A stretch of DNA of 64,000 nucleotides from Fistulifera solaris (lineage: Eukaryota), in assembly GCA_030295235.1 (NCBI GenBank), contig AP026164.1:1302001-1366000 (forward strand), in the 5' to 3' direction. Every line of letters starts with the position of its first letter. Within the stretch, counting starts at the first letter, position 1. Positions 5,467-14,754 of the stretch are shown one piece after another. The position numbers were made by a program, and so were the translations under genes. The notes under the pieces were generated by a model. That model was not told the DNA's origin, did no database searches, and was given only the letters and a program-made list of their open reading frames with translations.

Positions 5467-5679
5467 TGTCTCGGCTATATCATGATTCATGACTGAAATG
5501 CAGTCGCGGCACATGCTGTGGAATTTGGTGGAACCGAGAACCCGATCCAAGCATTTTCGATGAAAATCATCGCCGCGTGCACTGTAAAAAACAAGCTGCC
5601 TTGTTGGATATTCACTTCCATGTGACCGAGTTTATAATTCAAAAAGTATTCATTTCCAAATCTTGCATGCGAAAAAATC

Positions 5680-7422
5680 ATGTCCGACCAAAGCCGCCGT
5701 CGCTTTCCCGTGGGAGATCCCCGTAAATCGGCGGAGCAATATCATCAAGATATGTTCCAACGAAGGCAAACACATACCGTGTCGCTTCGGAAGGAGCGTA
5801 AGGAAGAGAGACTGTGGCGTCGTCGACGACAACCCCCGCATTCGACCTCAGATAGAGTTGTCACAGTCGATGAGCTACTGCAACAGTACAATTTGTTCCT
5901 CGACAATCCTCACGAAATCGAAAAACTGAAAGAGTTACAAACGTCCATGGCCATCGATTCGGCATCGACCCACCAGTTTTTACAACAGTTGATTGATAAC
6001 CCTGATTTAGAAACACGGAACCGCTTATTGATTGCCAGTCTACGGAAGATATTAGAGGAAAATTCCGGAACGATGGATGACAAAGGCAAGGCTTCATTTA
6101 AGGTTCTGATGGAAGTGACGTTCTTTTCGTTGAATGTACCGAAACCGTCTGCCGACGATTATTATGGCATGCCAGCATTGCGCTGGTCCGATATTGTACA
6201 AGAGGATGAACTATTGATAAATTTACTGGTGGACTGGCTTCGGGTACCATCCGCCAATGAAGAAAGCGTAGGATACGTATGCATAATCGTGGGAAACTTG
6301 TTACACGATTCGGCTAGGTTAATTCCATTTCTTACATCGGCATGGGGTGCTATCGTCAAGCAACTGCCTTTTTCATCGTATCTTTGTGCCACTCTTATCC
6401 GAGAGGACTCTACTCACTTGGGTGCTTCATTTTTGTATGATTTGACTCCCGAGAAAATAGCAACCCTGCTACGAGAAAGTAGCACGGCGGAGGAAGCCTC
6501 GTTCATCCTAGAAGGATTGAGTCGCAGAGAAGAAGAGGCGGTTCAGATATTGTGTGGATCCTTGGAGTTGATGTACGCCATTGTCGCTGTTTTAGAAGAG
6601 AGCATGACTTCGTCAAATACTCAGGTCCTTGGGCCCCTGCTACGGGCAACACGCAACATTTTCAAACAAAGTCAGCACGCGAAGGGCTTATTGTTACATC
6701 CGTCGTTTCTACCGATCATCTCCAGCATTATGGAACAAGGAACTGAACTCGACTCTCTCGAAGTCGCTACCGCTCTCTTAACCTGGAACGGTACACTTGG
6801 TAACGATGAAATTGGCACTTTACTTGTACAGACACTGCTGCCGGTCCTTGTTCGGATTATAACATCGTCCAGCGCCTCATTTCCCTGGAAGCGAGATGCT
6901 GCGTGGGCGGTGTGCTGTTCTTTGCATCACGACTGGTCAATCGAACACCACGCTGTGTCACCGCAGGCGAAAGGCATCTCTGTCACGTGGTTGTCAAACC
7001 AATTGAGCGTCCCCCAATCCGATTTCGTTCGCTCTTTGACGGATCTCTTAACCAGTCCTGATATGGAAGCTGTTATTCCTGCATTGCAAATTCTTGACGT
7101 GTTGTTACGTACGATTCAAGCGACGCAACAAATCTTTGAAAGTGCCGGAGGAGTAGATCGGCTGGACATGATTTGTGAAAGGGGCGGTGAAGGAAGTCTC
7201 TCAGATTTTGCTTCGCTTTTAGCTGCGGATCTTCTGGACGATTTGTTTGAGGCAGATATCGAAGAAGATTCTATCATACTTCCATGCAGAGGAGAGAATG
7301 AGTTTGCTTTCGGTGTCATGGAACCTCAAAAGGCATTTGACTTCGGTGTGGGGAATCAACCAGGTCCCGGTCGCGGTCGCGGCCTCACAATCCCCGCATG
7401 GATGCAACAGTCGAAGAGATAG
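5680..7422 (+). CDS. Divergent importin-alpha-like protein (IBB-like N-terminus + ARM-like helical repeats)
   Basis: 580-aa ORF. RRQTHTVSLRKERKEERLWRRR resembles the importin-beta-binding domain. KRDAAWAV and FESAGGVDRLD resemble importin-alpha C-terminal ARM repeats, followed by FAFG/FDFG. Confidence 0.7.
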   Translation: MSDQSRRRFPVGDPRKSAEQYHQDMFQRRQTHTVSLRKERKEERLWRRRRQPPHSTSDRVVTVDELLQQYNLFLDNPHEIEKLKELQTSMAIDSASTHQFLQQLIDNPDLETRNRLLIASLRKILEENSGTMDDKGKASFKVLMEVTFFSLNVPKPSADDYYGMPALRWSDIVQEDELLINLLVDWLRVPSANEESVGYVCIIVGNLLHDSARLIPFLTSAWGAIVKQLPFSSYLCATLIREDSTHLGASFLYDLTPEKIATLLRESSTAEEASFILEGLSRREEEAVQILCGSLELMYAIVAVLEESMTSSNTQVLGPLLRATRNIFKQSQHAKGLLLHPSFLPIISSIMEQGTELDSLEVATALLTWNGTLGNDEIGTLLVQTLLPVLVRIITSSSASFPWKRDAAWAVCCSLHHDWSIEHHAVSPQAKGISVTWLSNQLSVPQSDFVRSLTDLLTSPDMEAVIPALQILDVLLRTIQATQQIFESAGGVDRLDMICERGGEGSLSDFASLLAADLLDDLFEADIEEDSIILPCRGENEFAFGVMEPQKAFDFGVGNQPGPGRGRGLTIPAWMQQSKR

Positions 7423-8170: not shown

Positions 8171-11100
8171 ATGAGTAGTCGCGATGATGATGACGGATTG
8201 CTCGATGAATCTGAATCATCGGATACCGGATTTGAGCCTCCGAAAAAACGCAAAAAAACCGATTCGAAAAAGTCTTTCATCGATGACGCAGCAGAAGAGA
8301 GCGGAGAAGATGGAGATGATAATGATGAAGACGAGGAAGATGACGATGATATCAATGATTACGTAAAAGACGGTTTTGTTGTGGACGAAGATGAAGAAGA
8401 AAACAAGAAAAAGGATGATTTAGAGGATTCCGATGACGAAGATGACGACGACGAGGATGATGACGATGAAAGCCCAAGGAAAACATCAGACAAAGAAGCA
8501 AGTAGAAAACGGTTGAAGAAACTCCGCAGGACGCGCGACACAGATTTACTCGATGAAGACGATCTTGCACTTATCCAGGAGGCTCAAGCCGGTGAAGATC
8601 GAGCCGACAAAGAGGCTGCTCAGCGGCAGCGGTGCTTGCACGATCCGAAGCCGAACTCCGTCGAGGATTGTTTGCCGACCAGGAAGACGAGGATGAGATG
8701 CCCCGACCTGCACGTCGACCAGAGCGAGTGGAAGAATACGACGAGTACGACGATGGGTTCATTGAAGATGACATTGGTGATCAAGGCGAAATCCGTGCTT
8801 CCGAACGAAGAGGGGGTATGTTTGATGATGAAGATGCGAGGGAAGTAAGCGAAGCTCAATTAAATGAAGCAAGCGAGATATTCGGTACCGATTACTTGGA
8901 GTTCATGGCAGCTGAACAACCAGATGATGACGAAGAGGAATTATTTGGCAAGTACCGTGAACGTGGAATCGACGCAGGGGATGAGTCTGAAGAAGAAGAG
9001 AGCGACGATGACGACCTTTTTGGAGACGACGACGATGATGATGCATTGGACGGAGAAACGGCCCAGCAGAAAGCCGAAGCTTTGAAGCTAAAACGCGAAA
9101 AGCGAGCACTGGCAAAAGCCGAGCGTCGTCGAGCTGCTTTGCAAAAGAAAGCGCAAAGACGTAAAGCCCAGCTTAGAAAAGCCTTTGAGCCTGTCCAGCT
9201 TGTTGAAAACTTTTGTACTGATCGAGATGACGACATTCGCCAAACAGATATCCCCGAACGCTTTTACGATTGGAAAACTCCTTTTGATGGTTCAAGGGAA
9301 GATGGCTTGACCGATTCGGAAAGAATTAAAGCGGAGTGGATAGCTGAACGTATTCCGAAAATCTGTGCAGAGATCGCCAATAGTACGAGTGAGGACGAGA
9401 AGATTCGCGTTTGGAAGGCTATCGCAAACGCTCTTCGCTTCATGCATCGTGACAAGCTTGAGCCTTCATTTTTAAAGCACTATCGCAGAGATTACATTCA
9501 ATCTGCCGCAGTTCGCGAAAGCCTATATGACATTATGGATGAAGACTCTGAGTGGCACAATATGCTCAATGCTAGAAAGAAGGTAGAAGACCTTTTGCAG
9601 AGATCAATGCAACAATAGAAGTCGAACATTCTCAGAACGTTGATGTAGAGCAAATTCAGAAACTTCAGGCTGATTTAAAGACGGCAGAAGAGCAGCTTAA
9701 CGATACTGCAAAACAAGAAACACAAGTAAAACATGAGCTTGAAGCTTTGGGAGCTGCCCATGACGACGACGATGATGATGAGCTTTTTGGGGACGACGAT
9801 GATGATGACGGAGAAGTGAGTTTGGCCTCTCGACGTTGTTTTGTTACCATCGCATTTCCATTAACCTAACCTAATCACTGTTTCGTTTCAGGAGAAGAAG
9901 AGAGAGCGAACAAGGCTTACTCAACATCTCGAAACAATCCAGTCACTTTTGGAAGCACGCGCAGAGAAAGTTGCGCAACTGCAGTCGCAGCTTCAAGTTG
10001 CAGAGGCAAAAATCAATCATTGAGCGACGGGGGATCCATCGCAAGAATAATGAGAAAAACGCACAAAAAAATCACTGTGGGATGTGCCTGACTATACTCA
10101 GTATCTACTAGGGCTTCAAGATACTCGCCACATAGTTGACATGAATGTTTACCTCACTCTAATAAAGGAAGGAAATGACGCCATCAGGAAGAAGGAGCTC
10201 CCAGCTCTTGTGTTGAAAGAAGGTATGGGCGAACGACGGAAACGCAGCCGTAGATTTGACCGGGATTTCTACAGGACTTGCGTATCAGAAGGTCTTCGAG
10301 CCGTTTGTTATCGTTTTCTCTTGTCGCCTTCGCGAGTTGGTATCAAATTGGAGGACTCGGTACAGTATGGAAAGTTTGACTTTTCAAAGCCTCTACCCGG
10401 TTCAGAAGAACAGAGTGTTGATCCTCTTCAATGGGTCGCGCCAACTATTCCAGACAAGAGTCCATCCGATTTTGCCAATGATTTAATAGGAAGTGGAGAG
10501 CTTGTTTTGCTTTCTTCGCCAGATCTTGCCGACATGTCAGAAAGTAACGATCCTTTACGTGGCTGCAGATACGTTGCCGCGACAGAACTGGCAGCCGAAC
10601 CTAGGGTTCGACGAACTCTTAGAGAAATTTATCGCAAACATGCCGTGCTGACCACTAGACCGACAAAGAAAGGGTTGGATGTGATTGATGCGTTTCATGA
10701 CTACTACGGCATCCACTTGATCTTTGCGAAACCCGTAAAGGACCATTTCCCTGTGGATGCAGAGGAATCACAACGGCGGAAGGACACGCTTGGTTCATCG
10801 GAACAGAAAGAATACGATAAGGAGATGACAGAGCGCCAGAGGCGAAGCTGCCTACAATACTTACACGTTCTTAAGGCTGAGCAAACCGGACTAGTCTCTC
10901 TTCATGTTCACCTACCGTTGAAAGAAAAACGAGACGACTGGTATAGTATCGATACCGATCAGCTGCTGAACACGAACCAGAACTTAAAGCCTTTGCTTGA
11001 TGAAGTTGAAAAAGTTTACCTTCCACTAGACGCAGACGAATTCAACGAGGAACGCCGAAAAGTGGTGCATATGGCATTGGTCAGCTTCCTTCTTCCTCAA

Positions 11101-14100
11101 TTCGAAGCGGAGCTGAAGCGGGAGCTACGAGATGCATCAGTCAAAATTGGGATTGAGGCCGCCGCAAATAATTTGCGAAAAATGGCGATGGATGGGCCGT
11201 ACCGACCTGCAGCAATCGTCCACACAGAAAATCGCTTTCTGCATCCAACGGGTGATTTGCCTTTCGTTGGTGTGTCATGTTCGTCAGATCCCAAGGAAGC
11301 TACGTACTTAGCTGCGGTAACTGACCGGGGGGAATCAAGTGATTACCTTGCAATTCCTAGTGGCGTAAAAGTTGACTCACCAAAAATACGCGAGAAGGTT
11401 GTTATGTTTTTGATTCAAACACGACCTGCAGCTGTTATGGTTGGTACCTCCGGCGGCTTTGAAAGCCGGTTGCTTCAGCGAAAAATGGTTGATTTGATAA
11501 ACGAAGCTGTTCAGCGGTGGAATAAGCGTGATATTCAGGGAGAAGACGAAGACGATGATGCTTTTCTTTCACGCCAAGAACAGTTTAGGCAGTTTCAAAC
11601 TAACATTCATGACGACGACGACCAAGATGAGTGGACATGCAACGTTGAGTTAATTGACGATTCAGTCTCGCAGTTGTTTGGACGAAGTGTGCGGTCGAAG
11701 AAAGAGTTTCCAGACCACTCGATGAACTTAAAGTGCGCCATCTCTATTGCTAGATATGCTAAAGATCCTCTTGCCGAACTTGCATATGCTTGGAGTGTGG
11801 CAAGTGACTCAGGTAACTTTGGTACAGAGATGCTTTACCTGAATATTCACCCTTCACAGCAGCTGCTTCCCCGGACAATCCTACTCCGTCATTACGAAAG
11901 GGCTCTTTGTGATATCGTCGCTGAGATCGGGGTGAACCTTAACAAATGTACGGCTTTGGATCATCTGAAAGGCTTGCTTACATTTGTTCCGGGTTTGGGT
12001 CCACGTAAAGCTGCTAACTTGAACCATATGCTTTCTCAAATGGGAGGCGCAATAGCTAAGAGACGGGACCTTCTAGAGAAGCGAGTCCTTGGGCCTGTAG
12101 TTTACAATAATGCAGTTGCATTTTTACGAATTGAAGATGCGGACCAGCTTGCGGACCATATACTTCACCCCCTCGATGGCACCCGGTTGCATCCAGACGT
12201 TTACATTCGTAACAACTGGGCATCGAAAATTGCTTTTGATGCTCTCGAACGAGAAGACCCGAAAACAAAGGAGTCAGCAGCTATCAAAGCCGTGAGAGAT
12301 GTCATGGATGATTCTCATTTGGAAGTCGACAGACTTTTTAAGGCCACCAAAGCGGAGTGGGAGCGACACTATGGTCCAACGTTCAACATTAAAGAGTGGG
12401 ACCCGAGAGTCAATGTTCCTCACGATCAGTGGCGTGACAAAGTGGAAGAATTGGATCTCGACACTTTTGCCAATATGATAGAGCAGAACGGCCATGGGCG
12501 CTGGCATACCCACCTTGAAATGATTAAATGGGAATTTCGCTTGCCAGCAGCCGACCCGCGGAAACCGCTTGAACCACTTTCTGGGGATAAAGTTTTTCAT
12601 TTGATTACAGGTGAAACCGATCAAAGTCTCCGACCCGGCAAGGAAATTACCGGAAAAGTCATCCGCAATGGTGATTTTGGTTCTCGTGTCAAGCTTGAAG
12701 GGGACATTCCTGCGTTTATCCCTCTCAGAAACTTATCTGATGAGCACGTCGAATCCGCTGATGACTTCGTCAGCGTCGGCCAAATTGTGACTGCGGTAGT
12801 GACAGAAGTAAAGAAAGATCACATGACAGTTGATATGAGTTTAAAATTGGAAGACTTTCGTAAGAAGCCTAGTTCCTGGGAACGTCCCACCTCTCTTTTT
12901 TCACTCGACGAATGCTTCGACGTTCAAGCGGCAAATAAAATTGAAGATGACAACGCAAAAAAGAGAGATGCTCATGTCGATGCTCTTCTTGTAAGTCTTG
13001 GAAGAACGGGAGACGACGTCGGTGGACTTCGCCAAGGAAAACGACGTGTTGTTCGACGGGCATGTACCCACCCTGCCTTCCGTAATGCTAAAAACAAAGA
13101 GGTAGAACGCGAGTTACTGGACGGGGGCTCTCAGATGGTTGGAGAGGCGCTCATTCGTCCCAGCAATAAATCAAGCGACTCGTTGGCTATCCATTGGGTT
13201 GTTAAAGAAGGCATGATCAAAGTGATTGAAGTTTTGGAAGAAAATAAGGAAACAGATGCTAGCATTGGAAATATTTTGAAGATAAAGGTATGCTTCGCCG
13301 TTTACACATTCTTGTCCTTGCTTCATTTCTGACCTTGGCATTATTTCAGGACGATGCGTTCGGCAGTATCGACGAACTTCTTGGACGTTTCATTGCCCCC
13401 ATGAACGACTACGTCGAGGAGCTCGTAAGTCATCGTAAATTTCTTGATCTTGCTGAAGAAGAAGTTGATGCTAAGCTCAAGGATGAAAAGAAGGCCAACC
13501 CGAAGTCCATTCCTTATGCACTCTGTTGGCTTGAAATGCACCCCGGCTATGCTTCTTTGCGTTTCGTTGCGTCTTCGACTCCGAGAAACCACACTATTGG
13601 AATCAGCCCAAAAGGATTCTCTTGGAATTCAATTACGTATGCCAATCTGGATGTTCTAATTGACAGTTTTAAGAAGAATCCTCGTGGTTCGGTCCCGAAA
13701 CCGAAGGAACTTCCATCTGTCCGTAAGCCTCCAGCACCCCCAGTACCCTCTCGACTACCGACGGAAAACAGATGGGGTGCAAAGCCACTTCCACCAGCCG
13801 CAACAGCTACTGGTTGGAATCAAGCGCAAGCGCCTCCGCCTTCTACTAAAGTTGGTTGGGGGCACCATCCGGAGGTCCTCCTGCTGCTGCGAAGGTTGGA
13901 TGGGGTGCGCCATCTCCTGCTCCTCCTGTTGCCGCAAAGGTTGGGTGGGGTGAACCGTCTTCAGCTCCTCCCCCGACATACGCGGCTCCTCCCGCCGTCG
14001 GTTGGGGCGCCCTATCCCGGCAAACGGGTACAGGTTGGCAACCTCAGAGAGCTCCTCCTCCTCCTAGACCTCAATCGCAGCATCAGCCCCCACCACCTGG

Positions 14101-14337
14101 ACCGTCAGCAATGCATCGCCCTCCCCACCGAACTTGCCTCCACCGCCAATGTACAACCAGGCTCCGCCGCCAAGGCCTCCCCCACCGAGACCCGTTCCAA
14201 ACTTGCCGCCTCCTGCAGCCCGACCACCACCTGATTACGGCTTTGGTGGCGACTTTCCACCCCCACAGGATTCCGGACAAGGTCGCGGTCGCGGACGAGG
14301 ACGTACTTTGCCTGCTTGGATGTCAAAAGGACAGTAA
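8171..14337 (+). CDS. SPT6: Transcription elongation factor / histone chaperone SPT6
   Basis: Acidic N-terminus (SFIDDAAEES, DDDIRQTDIPER), YqgF-like and HhH region (FVPGLGPRKA, HPLDGTRLHP), S1 domain and tandem SH2 (GEALIRPS, PKSIPYALC). Introns ~9816-9891 and ~13288-13349. Several homopolymer frameshifts. Confidence 0.93.
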
Positions 14338-14754
14338 GGTGTTAGGTCGTGCGTGCGCTTATCTAGCGCGATACTTAGGATGTAGGAAACGTCTAGCTAA
14401 ATAACAAAAGGTCTTTTGAACAGATTTTTGATCAGCAATGATCGATCAAGCGGGATCGATGATGAAGAAAGAGAGCTTGTGTCTTGTTTGTTCGTGTAAT
14501 TTACGGTAGGGAAAGTGTTGCAGTACCGTACAGATACGAACACATTCTTTGCCTAAGAAAGACACAGGAAAAGTTTCCGTTCAAAAATCACCATTGCCCC
14601 TTGATAAATAAATTGCCGACAGAATGACGACGAGACGAGAAGCGACAAGGTGAAAAACGATGAACGCATATTATTTATTCAATTTTATTGAATCTCCTGT
14701 TTGAATCACAAGTCATGCCTCACTTGCTCTCGCGAATGAGTCCTCCCGCGAGCC

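What the first reader, a model, noticed from the sequence alone, without database searches (positions are those of the whole stretch)
13771..14040. SPT6 carries a GW/WG-repeat tail resembling an Argonaute hook
Seen: after the tandem SH2 domain, and correcting a frameshift in the G-run near 13860, the protein reads RWGA..TGWN..KVGWG.PS..KVGWGAPS..KVGWGEPS..AVGWGA..TGWQ in a Pro/Ala-rich tail. Established: GW/WG repeats bind Argonaute (GW182, plant NRPE1, SPT5L/KTF1), and Arabidopsis SPT6L has such a tail while yeast and animal SPT6 do not. Inference: a diatom elongation factor may recruit AGO-small RNA complexes co-transcriptionally. This would be a candidate link to TE silencing in a lineage without plant Pol IV/V.
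Basis: partly seen in the sequence, partly recalled or inferred. Interest (0 to 1): 0.7.

Follow-up and report, generated by a model that had tools for sequence, protein, structure and literature searches.

The report
Diatom SPT6 tail with tryptophan-glycine repeats
A diatom's essential transcription elongation factor SPT6 ends in a floppy proline-rich tail with seven evenly spaced tryptophan-glycine motifs, like the tail that plant SPT6L uses to bind Argonaute, and milder versions occur in nearly all diatoms, but whether it binds Argonaute is untested.

Summary
The gene is SPT6. Behind the tandem SH2 domain lies a 218-residue Pro/Ala/Gly-rich tail with 8 Trp, 7 of them next to Gly and 11-19 residues apart.

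The window breaks the tail into three frames. Contigs of public runs add one G behind 13857 and one C behind 14122, which restores one frame down to a conserved end, GRGRGRTLPAWM. Spliced contigs show the gene is transcribed, and no splice lies in the tail.

Trp motifs are conserved. Of 82 diatom SPT6 tails, 81 carry Trp and 61 begin with SRWG. The median Trp-Trp gap is 15 residues. The fourfold VGWG array is partly a young 45-nt tandem expansion.

By the published plant scoring scheme the tail passes the cut-off, but only in the weak class. It is 30% proline, against 3% in plant hooks.

No Argonaute sequence was available, so binding is untested. I put an Argonaute hook at about 0.4.

GW-rich SPT6 tails also occur in Amoebozoa, a malawimonad, fungi and a glaucophyte, although print calls this hook plant-specific. 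The scan index held no earlier SPT6 note.

The parts
8171..14337 (+). SPT6 gene (approximate span; the exon structure of the N-terminal third was not resolved)
   Evidence: Pfam hits HTH_44, Tex_central, YqgF, HHH_7, S1/Spt6_S1 and SH2_2 on the ORF pieces. The best relatives are diatom SPT6 proteins at 57-70% identity.
13048..13676 (+). Tandem SH2 domain, split by an intron
   Evidence: SH2_2 profile positions 23-98 match 13048-13284 (E 7.6e-18). Positions 102-210 match 13356-13676 (E 5.4e-26).
13286..13347 (+). 62-nt GT..AG intron
   Evidence: Skipped in contigs of runs X2 and X3 (table 5).
13683..14334 (+). Disordered C-terminal tail, 218 residues once the two one-base breaks are read through
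   Evidence: Composition is 65 P, 25 A, 25 G and 8 W of 218. In the AlphaFold2 model of the close relative P0250, the SH2 part has pLDDT 91-96. The tail has no secondary structure and block means of 41-79.
13770..14041 (+). GW/WG zone: seven Gly-adjacent Trp (RWGA, TGWN, four VGWG, TGWQ)
   Evidence: Trp codons start at 13773, 13815, 13857, 13901, 13946, 14003 and 14036, with gaps of 14, 14, 15, 15, 19 and 11 residues. None of 5000 shuffles reaches 7 Gly-adjacent Trp.
13851..13971 (+). 45-nt (15-residue) tandem repeat that encodes the (A)AKVGWGxPS units
   Evidence: Tandem Repeats Finder: period 45, 2.7 copies, 77% matches, score 130.
13858..13862 (+). Run of 5 G, one base short in the window (first frame break)
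   Evidence: An X1 contig puts a G in behind 13857, at depth 13.5 of 13.5 (table 4).
14123..14126 (+).
   Evidence: X1, X2 and X3 contigs put a C in behind 14122 (table 4).
14131..14154 (+). NLPPPPMY, a conserved PPxY-type motif
   Evidence: It aligns with [ND]LPPPPxY in most of the 14 full-length diatom tails compared. That PPxY is a WW-domain ligand is recalled knowledge, not tested here.
14275..14337 (+). C-terminal module GQGRGRGRGRTLPAWMSKGQ plus the stop codon
   Evidence: Conserved at the end of 14 of 82 diatom SPT6 models. The same module sits on unrelated diatom proteins.

Best explanation
The tail is a multivalent tryptophan-motif docking platform carried on elongating RNA polymerase II by SPT6. 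Its most likely single partner is Argonaute. On this reading the evenly spaced GW/WG tryptophans insert into the tryptophan pockets of an Argonaute PIWI domain, as in plant SPT6L. That would bring small-RNA-loaded Argonaute to nascent transcripts.

Shown: the gene identity, the translated frame, transcription, predicted disorder, Trp enrichment and spacing, and conservation across diatoms.

Inferred: the partner, and any link to transposon silencing or to methylation of DNA or RNA.
For: - Seven Gly-adjacent Trp lie 11-19 residues apart in a segment predicted to be disordered.
- Across 82 diatom tails, 81 have Trp. Trp frequency is 2.47% in tails against 1.33% in the protein bodies.
- Of 218 non-PAWM Trp, 137 are followed by Gly. 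The median Trp-Trp gap is 15, and 113 of 137 gaps are 10-25 residues. Trp sits in the first half of the tail, while Phe and Tyr sit in the last fifth.
- R-W is invariant in a 23-sequence alignment.
- My re-implementation of the Karlowski 2010 score gives 20.72 and 9.2 half-bits, both above the 6.99 cut-off. Of the 82 diatom tails, 77 pass it, against 16 of 82 protein bodies.
- Between the window and P0250, all 5 alignable GW Trp are kept, while the zone as a whole is 58 of 93 identical.
- Plant SPT6L carries a hook at the same position, and that hook binds AGO4 and AGO9.
- SPT6 tails with canonical Gly/Ser/Asn-rich GW arrays recur in other supergroups.
- hAGO2 has three evenly spaced Trp pockets.
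- Diatoms have an Argonaute-like protein and small RNAs on methylated transposons.
Against: - No Argonaute sequence or binding test was available.
- The score is in the weak class (below 25). The fern SPT6L scores 117+31+28, and 243 of 5000 composition-preserving shuffles reach 20.72.
- The residues around the Trp are 21% P, 15.5% A and 10% R. The fern has 31% G, and the amoebozoan and fungal tails have 26% S and 24% G. Proline makes up 3.2% of plant hook domains.
- The first motif, SRWG, aligns with SRF or SRY in other eukaryotes. Per the passage, Trp-to-Phe changes abolish Argonaute binding.
- Twelve of 82 diatom tails have a single Trp, and one has none (Leu in its place).
- One relative at 38% identity (P0015) has about ten PPPNF repeats instead of Trp motifs.
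- The oomycete Thraustotheca SPT6 has no Trp tail. Oomycetes have Argonautes (recalled; listing only).
- The high count in this species is partly a recent tandem duplication.
Confidence: 0.4

Rival explanations
1. The Trp motifs are short linear motifs for a partner other than Argonaute. On this reading the tail is a composite docking platform: SRWG, GW units, poly-proline and PPxY, and RG-PAWM. It would recruit WW, GYF or SH3-type proteins, RNA-processing factors or chromatin factors to elongating Pol II.
For: - SRWG is homologous to the SR[FY] motifs behind the tandem SH2 in non-diatom SPT6, so an older partner is likely.
- The Trp is typically followed by Gly or Asn, then Gln and a proline run, and a similar W-[NQG]-Q-G-P-P pattern occurs in Cyanophora.
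- The tail also holds a conserved [ND]LPPPPxY and a portable RG-PAWM module.
- The context is proline-rich and basic, unlike known hooks.
Against: - No candidate partner was identified or tested.
- Known proline-binding domains do not need Trp at regular gaps of about 15 residues.
- Gly next to the Trp, in 137 of 218 cases, is the signature of Argonaute-binding motifs.
- That GW182-type Trp motifs can also bind CCR4-NOT or PAN3 is recalled knowledge, not tested.
Confidence: 0.33
2. The Trp residues act as aromatic stickers in a low-complexity proline-rich tail. They would tune condensate partitioning or weak self-association with the Pol II machinery, with no dedicated pocket-type partner.
For: - The aromatic residues are evenly spaced in a disordered tail.
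- Relatives use Phe-based repeats instead: PPPNF in P0015 and GPPGGF in Cyanophora.
- Tyr-rich and Gln-rich stretches lie further down many tails.
Against: - At the first motif Trp is never replaced by Phe or Tyr in 82 diatom tails; the single exception is Leu.
- Trp and Tyr/Phe occupy separate zones of the tail, which suggests distinct motif classes rather than interchangeable stickers.
Confidence: 0.15
3. The GW array in this species is a neutral by-product of tandem duplication in a fast-evolving low-complexity tail and has no function of its own.
For: - The zone contains a 45-nt tandem repeat.
- The number of units differs between the window (7) and its close relative P0250 (5) through whole-unit insertions or deletions.
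- Trp counts vary from 0 to 6 across diatoms.
Against: - Trp, the rarest residue, persists in 81 of 82 tails.
- Its spacing and flanks are conserved while the surrounding sequence diverges.
Confidence: 0.12

Closest known systems
Arabidopsis SPT6L (GTB1) C-terminal Argonaute hook
   Same: It is the same protein family and the same position, directly behind the tandem SH2. It is also a disordered tail with repeated WG/GW motifs. The plant hook binds AGO4 and AGO9.
   Different: The plant hook is rich in Gly, Ser, Asn and Asp and scores in the strong class (above 150 half-bits; the fern homologue scores 117+31+28). The diatom tail is 30% proline, basic, and scores 20.7+9.2. It also carries PPxY and RG-PAWM modules. 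Common descent of the two tails cannot be shown, because they are low-complexity and cannot be aligned.
NRPE1 and SPT5L/KTF1 WG/GW platforms (plant Pol V)
   Same: Both are reiterated WG/GW motifs on a disordered extension of a transcription-machinery protein.
   Different: The carrier proteins differ. The plant platforms have many more motifs and a Gly/Ser-rich composition.
GW182/TNRC6 Argonaute-binding domain
   Same: Both have multiple Trp in a disordered region, spaced so that they could reach separate pockets on PIWI.
   Different: Pfam finds no GW182 domains (UBA, RRM, silencing domain) in the SPT6 pieces. GW182 is a cytoplasmic miRNA effector, not a Pol II factor.
Canonical SPT6 (yeast Spt6, human SUPT6H)
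   Same: The full domain core is shared: HTH, YqgF, HhH, S1 and tandem SH2.
   Different: Non-diatom hits such as the Thraustotheca protein show Ser-rich tails with SRF or SRY instead.
GW-rich SPT6 tails of Pelomyxa, Echinamoeba, Protostelium, Tulasnella, Gefionella and Cyanophora (undescribed, found here)
   Same: All are Trp arrays at the SPT6 C-terminus. The pattern of Trp, a small residue, Gln or Glu and then prolines recurs.
   Different: Most of these tails are Ser/Gly/Asn-rich and score 36-104 half-bits. The diatom tails lie at the proline-rich, low-valency end of that range.

Membership tests
SPT6 transcription elongation factor / histone chaperone | Domain series HTH, YqgF, HhH, S1 and C-terminal tandem SH2 | tested here: met
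   Pfam: HTH_44 6.2e-13, YqgF 1.2e-10, HHH_7 9.8e-20, S1 3.4e-11, and SH2_2 in two halves at 7.6e-18 and 5.4e-26.
WG/GW Argonaute-binding platform (AGO hook) | Several WG/GW motifs | tested here: met
   Seven Gly-adjacent Trp. None of 5000 shuffles reaches 7.
WG/GW Argonaute-binding platform (AGO hook) | Motifs lie in an intrinsically disordered region | tested here: met
   AlphaFold2 on the close relative P0250 with 23 aligned sequences: SH2 pLDDT 91-96, tail without secondary structure and block means of 41-79. The window's own corrected tail was not folded.
WG/GW Argonaute-binding platform (AGO hook) | Biased composition (rich in G, S, N, W; poor in hydrophobic residues), scored by the Karlowski 2010 domain score with cut-off 6.99 half-bits | tested here: inconclusive
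   My re-implementation gives 20.72 and 9.2 half-bits. Both are above the cut-off but in the weak class, and 243 of 5000 shuffles reach 20.72. Proline is 30% of the tail against 3.2% in plant domains. The second published score (ics) was not computed, because its matrix is in a supplement I did not see.
WG/GW Argonaute-binding platform (AGO hook) | Trp residues far enough apart (about 10 residues or more) to reach separate PIWI pockets | tested here: met
   The gaps are 14, 14, 15, 15, 19 and 11 residues. The threshold is recalled (Pfaff 2013, Elkayam 2017; not held). states that hAGO2 has three evenly spaced pockets.
WG/GW Argonaute-binding platform (AGO hook) | Trp-dependent binding to an Argonaute PIWI domain | not testable with these tools
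   No genome is held for the window. No Argonaute gene lies among the 25 window ORF pieces scanned against Pfam. No complex prediction was run.
WG/GW Argonaute-binding platform (AGO hook) | The host encodes an Argonaute with intact Trp pockets | not tested
   Only literature is available: P. tricornutum and T. pseudonana have Argonaute-like proteins (passages). Their pockets were not examined.
Plant SPT6L clade (orthology of the hook) | Tail inherited from the streptophyte SPT6L ancestor | tested here: not met
   The protein groups by similarity with diatom SPT6 at 57-70% identity. The fern SPT6L, at 30% identity, ranks near the bottom of the 150 hits listed. Print describes the hook as a streptophyte synapomorphy. 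No tree was built.
GW182/TNRC6 | GW182 family domains besides the GW region | tested here: not met
   Pfam finds only SPT6 domains, and none at all in the tail pieces.

The most novel reading that the evidence does not exclude
Tryptophan-motif tails on SPT6 are an ancient, or repeatedly re-invented, eukaryote-wide tether that places Argonaute and its small RNA on elongating Pol II. They are not a plant invention, and diatoms carry a proline-rich, low-valency version. In diatoms, which lack Pol IV and Pol V, this tail would be the missing link between the 25-30-nt small RNAs and the methylated, silenced transposons and gene bodies.
Probability: 0.22. Interest if true: 0.85.

Novelty: new variant of a known kind. 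Interest (0 to 1): 0.62.

Why it matters
Small RNAs of 25-30 nt coincide with DNA-methylated, silenced transposons in Phaeodactylum. How Argonaute meets chromatin or nascent RNA in diatoms is unknown.

A Trp platform on the one elongation factor that travels with every Pol II gives a concrete hypothesis. It can be tested with a pull-down of the wild-type tail against a Trp-to-Ala tail, and with a tail deletion.

The finding also bears on how the plant pathway arose. Print treats the SPT6L hook as a streptophyte novelty. Here GW-type SPT6 tails turn up in diatoms, a pelagophyte (weakly), Amoebozoa, a malawimonad, fungi and a glaucophyte.

There is a practical point too. The window's two one-base homopolymer errors would make any gene caller replace most of this tail with a spurious Leu-rich sequence.

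Tried and rejected
- Own-genome search: no genome is held for the window. Copy number, paralogues and the species' Argonaute could therefore not be examined.
- Argonaute in the window: none among the 25 ORF pieces scanned against Pfam.
- Complex prediction was not run, for lack of a legitimate Argonaute sequence.
- Read cover: runs X2 and X3 have no contig over about 13759-13978. The G insertion therefore rests on one X1 contig, on P0250 and on the one-frame homologues. The X5 contig (13868-14107, no difference) spans neither break.
- No contig of the divergent second allele was laid across the GW zone, so its repeat number is unknown.
- An intron or programmed frameshift as the cause of the frame changes is rejected. 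Contigs carry single-base insertions in homopolymers, and no joint lies in the tail.
- Literature: 'PAWM' returned only irrelevant papers. 'diatom' with 'AGO-hook' returned 0 papers. 'SPT6' with 'diatom' returned 6 irrelevant papers. None of the 20 listed hits contained 'diatom'.
- Elkayam 2017 and Sheu-Gruttadauria 2018 are not held.
- Scan index: no SPT6 note and none for this genome. One loosely related note on a viral RPB2 tail did not change my reading.
- Searches sent with too-short terms failed and were resent in corrected form.
Full report
**What is there.** The finding lies in the last exon of a gene on the + strand that spans about 8171-14337. Pfam identifies it as SPT6. The hits are HTH_44, Tex-central, YqgF, HHH_7, S1/Spt6_S1 and the two halves of the tandem SH2 model SH2_2 (profile positions 23-98 at 13048-13284 and 102-210 at 13356-13676). 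The closest proteins are diatom SPT6 at 57-70% identity. Named examples are Epithemia clementina (62%), Thalassiosira profunda (57%), Cylindrotheca, Fragilaria crotonensis and T. pseudonana. The window's other genes are ordinary nuclear eukaryotic genes: PPDK, a chlorophyll a/b-binding family protein, RPA and an HMG-box protein.

**The frames.** In the window the tail is spread over three frames:
- Frame 0 runs up to 13862 and gives RWGA, TGWN and the first KVGWG.
- Frame 2 gives three more VGWG units and TGWQ.
- Frame 1 gives a proline-rich stretch that ends in GRGRGRGRTLPAWMSKGQ and a stop.

I laid contigs of four public runs on 12900-14450. One X1 contig (13769-14154, 388 letters, no mismatch) has two one-letter insertions. 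One is a G behind 13857, so the run of five G becomes six. The other is a C behind 14122, so the run of four C becomes five. X2 and X3 contigs, from the same study, also carry the C.

With both bases added, the tail is a single frame from the SH2 domain to the stop at 14335-14337.

X2 and X3 contigs also splice out 13286-13347 (62 nt, GT..AG), so they derive from RNA. No joint lies inside the tail. The G insertion rests on one contig of a run whose RNA or DNA nature is only guessed. Two other lines support that frame:
- P0250, a 291-residue protein from another assembly, reads from SH2 through the GW units to PAWM in one frame. It matches the window at 217 of 286 aligned residues, 82 of 94 within the SH2 part.
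- Fourteen diatom SPT6 models run in one frame from SH2 through Trp motifs to the same PAWM end.

Left uncorrected, frame 0 stays open to 14234 and would give a spurious Leu-rich tail.

**Is it more than chance?** Behind the FKKNP end of the SH2 domain the tail has 218 residues, read with X at the two breaks. It holds 65 P, 25 A, 25 G and 8 W. Seven Trp are next to Gly. None of 5000 shuffles of the tail reaches seven, and the mean is 1.72. The Trp codons start at 13773, 13815, 13857, 13901, 13946, 14003 and 14036, with gaps of 14, 14, 15, 15, 19 and 11 residues. The eighth Trp, at 14317, belongs to the PAWM end. Part of this regularity is recent. Tandem Repeats Finder reports a 45-nt unit in 2.7 copies at 13851-13971, so the KVGWG units are copies of one another and not independent events.

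**Conservation.** I examined 86 diatom-type SPT6 proteins. All 80 hits were included (77 new ids, plus P0004, P0014 and P0110, which one search had already returned). Four had no recognisable FK.NP anchor and were dropped (P0194, P0203, P0237, P0241), which left 82. These are related sequences, many from metagenome gene calls of unknown completeness, so the counts are not independent events.

- 81 of 82 tails contain Trp. By number of Trp, the tails divide as: none 1, one 12, two 28, three 9, four 24, five 7, six 1.
- Trp makes up 2.47% of tail residues (232 of 9397) against 1.33% of the protein bodies (1258 of 94333).
- The first Trp is SRWG in 61 tails and [TNG]RWG in 12 more.
- In a 23-sequence alignment the Arg and Trp of this motif are invariant, and the Gly is at least 90% conserved.
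- Of 218 Trp outside PAWM, 137 are followed by Gly, 29 by Asn and 13 by Gln.
- The median Trp-Trp gap is 15 residues, and 113 of 137 gaps lie between 10 and 25.
- Trp sits in the first half of the tail (median relative position 0.43). Phe and Tyr sit near the end (0.80 and 0.85).
- Between the window and P0250, all 5 alignable GW Trp are kept and 2 fall in whole-unit gaps. The zone as a whole is 58 of 93 identical.

So a Trp-motif zone behind the SH2 domain is a conserved feature of diatom SPT6. This species has the largest array seen here, seven motifs, and P0250 has five.

**Disorder.** I folded P0250 with a 23-sequence alignment. AlphaFold2 gives pLDDT 91-96 for the SH2 part. From residue 100 onward it gives no secondary structure, with block means of 41-79, apart from a four-residue helix at the PAWM end.

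**Does it look like an Argonaute hook?** Karlowski et al. 2010 (PMC2910046; I read passages and sections 5 and 6) define the hook by WG/GW motifs in a region of biased composition. They give a scoring matrix, an extension rule with a drop-off of 8.6 half-bits, and a cut-off of 6.99 half-bits. My re-implementation gives the window's tail two domains: 20.72 half-bits with five Trp and 9.2 with two. Both pass the cut-off but fall in the paper's weak class (below 25).

- Among the 82 diatom tails, 77 pass the cut-off and 20 reach 20. Among their bodies, 16 pass and none reaches 20.
- A fern SPT6L scores 117+31+28.
- 243 of 5000 shuffles of the window's tail reach 20.72, because the score is driven by composition.
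- The context differs. Within five residues of a Trp, diatom tails are 21% P, 15.5% A, 13% G and 10% R. The fern is 31% G, and the amoebozoan and fungal tails are 26% S and 24% G. Proline is 3.2% of plant hook domains.
- The paper's second score was not computed, because its matrix is in a supplement I did not see.

hAGO2 has three evenly spaced Trp pockets (PMC12477606, passages). That motifs need about ten or more residues between them is recalled, and the papers are not held.

**What speaks against a simple hook.**
1. In non-diatom SPT6, SRF or SRY occupies the place of SRWG just behind the SH2 domain. Examples are P0125, P0026, P0032, P0034 and P0044, and P0015 has SRWD. The first motif is therefore probably older and has another partner. 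Trp-to-Phe changes abolish Argonaute binding (passage citing El-Shami 2007).
2. A relative at 38% identity (P0015) has about ten PPPNF repeats instead of Trp motifs. Cyanophora has nine GPPGGF repeats ahead of four Trp motifs.
3. The tail holds other conserved motifs. One is [ND]LPPPPxY, at 14131-14154 here. Another is PPAF[DGN]. The third is the terminal GRGRGRT[LMIV]PAWM.
4. Twelve of 82 diatom tails have a single Trp. F. crotonensis has only one, and T. pseudonana has two SRWG.
5. The oomycete Thraustotheca SPT6 has no Trp tail.

No Argonaute sequence was within reach. No genome is held and none lies in the window. Neither pocket conservation nor a predicted complex could be examined.

**The wider pattern.** Among the 150 best SPT6 relatives, 14 have a WG/GW domain of 25 half-bits or more. 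In 13 of these the domain lies in the last 400 residues. Named cases:
- the fern Adiantum, which is the known plant SPT6L;
- the amoebozoans Pelomyxa schiedti (104+57), Echinamoeba exundans (78+22) and Protostelium nocturnum (36);
- the basidiomycete Tulasnella (81+24 in the tail);
- the glaucophyte Cyanophora paradoxa (61).

Below 25 half-bits come the amoebozoan Thecamoeba quadrilineata (23), the malawimonad Gefionella okellyi (22+15) and the mucoromycete Podila humilis (22). A pelagophyte has two WG motifs and a PAWL end.

Print says otherwise. Cermak et al. 2024 (PMC10991848; abstract and passages) call SPT6L with the hook a synapomorphy of Streptophyta. They searched Viridiplantae only. 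Kaspar et al. 2026 (preprint; abstract, Introduction and first Results section) call the hook unique to plants. They also show AGO4/AGO9 binding that depends on it. I could not see their supplements.

My searches found no paper that combines 'diatom' with 'AGO-hook' (0 papers). None of the 6 papers holding 'SPT6' and 'diatom' is relevant. The scan's own index held no SPT6 note.

**Verdict.** The repeats are transcribed, lie in one frame, sit in a disordered tail and have conserved counterparts across diatoms.

I rate the readings as follows:
- an Argonaute hook at 0.40;
- a Trp-motif platform for another partner at 0.33;
- aromatic stickers at 0.15;
- a neutral repeat at 0.12.

In P. tricornutum, 25-30-nt small RNAs cover methylated, silenced transposons, and an Argonaute-like protein exists (PMC4247016, passages).

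On novelty, this is a new variant of a known kind: a proline-rich, low-valency GW tail on SPT6 outside plants.

Noticed in passing
window 14123-14126: A second one-base homopolymer shortfall (4 C where the run contigs have 5) breaks the SPT6 frame again, 260 nt after the first. Two such errors in about 300 nt suggest the assembly undercounts homopolymers elsewhere too.
   Followed up: yes
window 14275-14334 and 7330-7419; P0247-P0259: The C-terminal module GRGRG(R)T[LI]PAWM, preceded by an AFDFG or PPAF-like patch, is shared by SPT6 and the neighbouring upstream gene. That gene (5638..7422) has a weak IBB hit and is importin-alpha-like. The module also ends that gene's orthologues (P0253-P0258) and recurs 2-5 times inside other unannotated diatom proteins (P0247, P0248, P0249, P0251, P0259). 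It looks like a portable diatom motif with an unknown partner. A literature search for 'PAWM' found nothing relevant.
   Followed up: partly
P0147, P0075, P0061, P0083, P0071, P0122, P0150, P0053, P0046, P0047, P0145 (hits): SPT6 homologues carry Trp-rich, mostly Gly/Ser/Asn-rich C-terminal tails that score 22-104 half-bits on the plant hook matrix. They come from Amoebozoa, a malawimonad, two fungi, a glaucophyte and several unnamed sources. Print describes the SPT6 hook as specific to streptophytes.
   Followed up: partly
window 13764-13784; tails of P0125, P0026, P0032, P0034, P0044, P0015: A short basic-aromatic motif, [KR]xSR[WFY], sits just behind the tandem SH2 domain in SPT6 of very distant eukaryotes. 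Diatoms have SRWG there, some of them twice.
   Followed up: partly
window 14131-14154: NLPPPPMY aligns with [ND]LPPPPxY in other full-length diatom SPT6 tails. It is a PPxY-type motif, a possible WW-domain ligand (recalled, not tested).
   Followed up: no
window 12900-13787 and 14199-14345: The run contigs show a second version of the gene with about 6-8% nucleotide differences: 39 of 617, 23 of 301 and 12 of 147 positions, plus a 3-nt insertion behind 14222. This is a divergent allele or a close strain. P0250 may be its product.
   Followed up: partly
window about 8600-8650: The N-terminal acidic region of SPT6 changes from frame 2 to frame 1 near 8632 with no obvious intron. This may be another missing base. 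It was not checked against reads.
   Followed up: no
P0147 (Pelomyxa schiedti SPT6), last 350 residues: Its GW-rich tail also contains two CCHC zinc-knuckle-like stretches between the Trp arrays.
   Followed up: no
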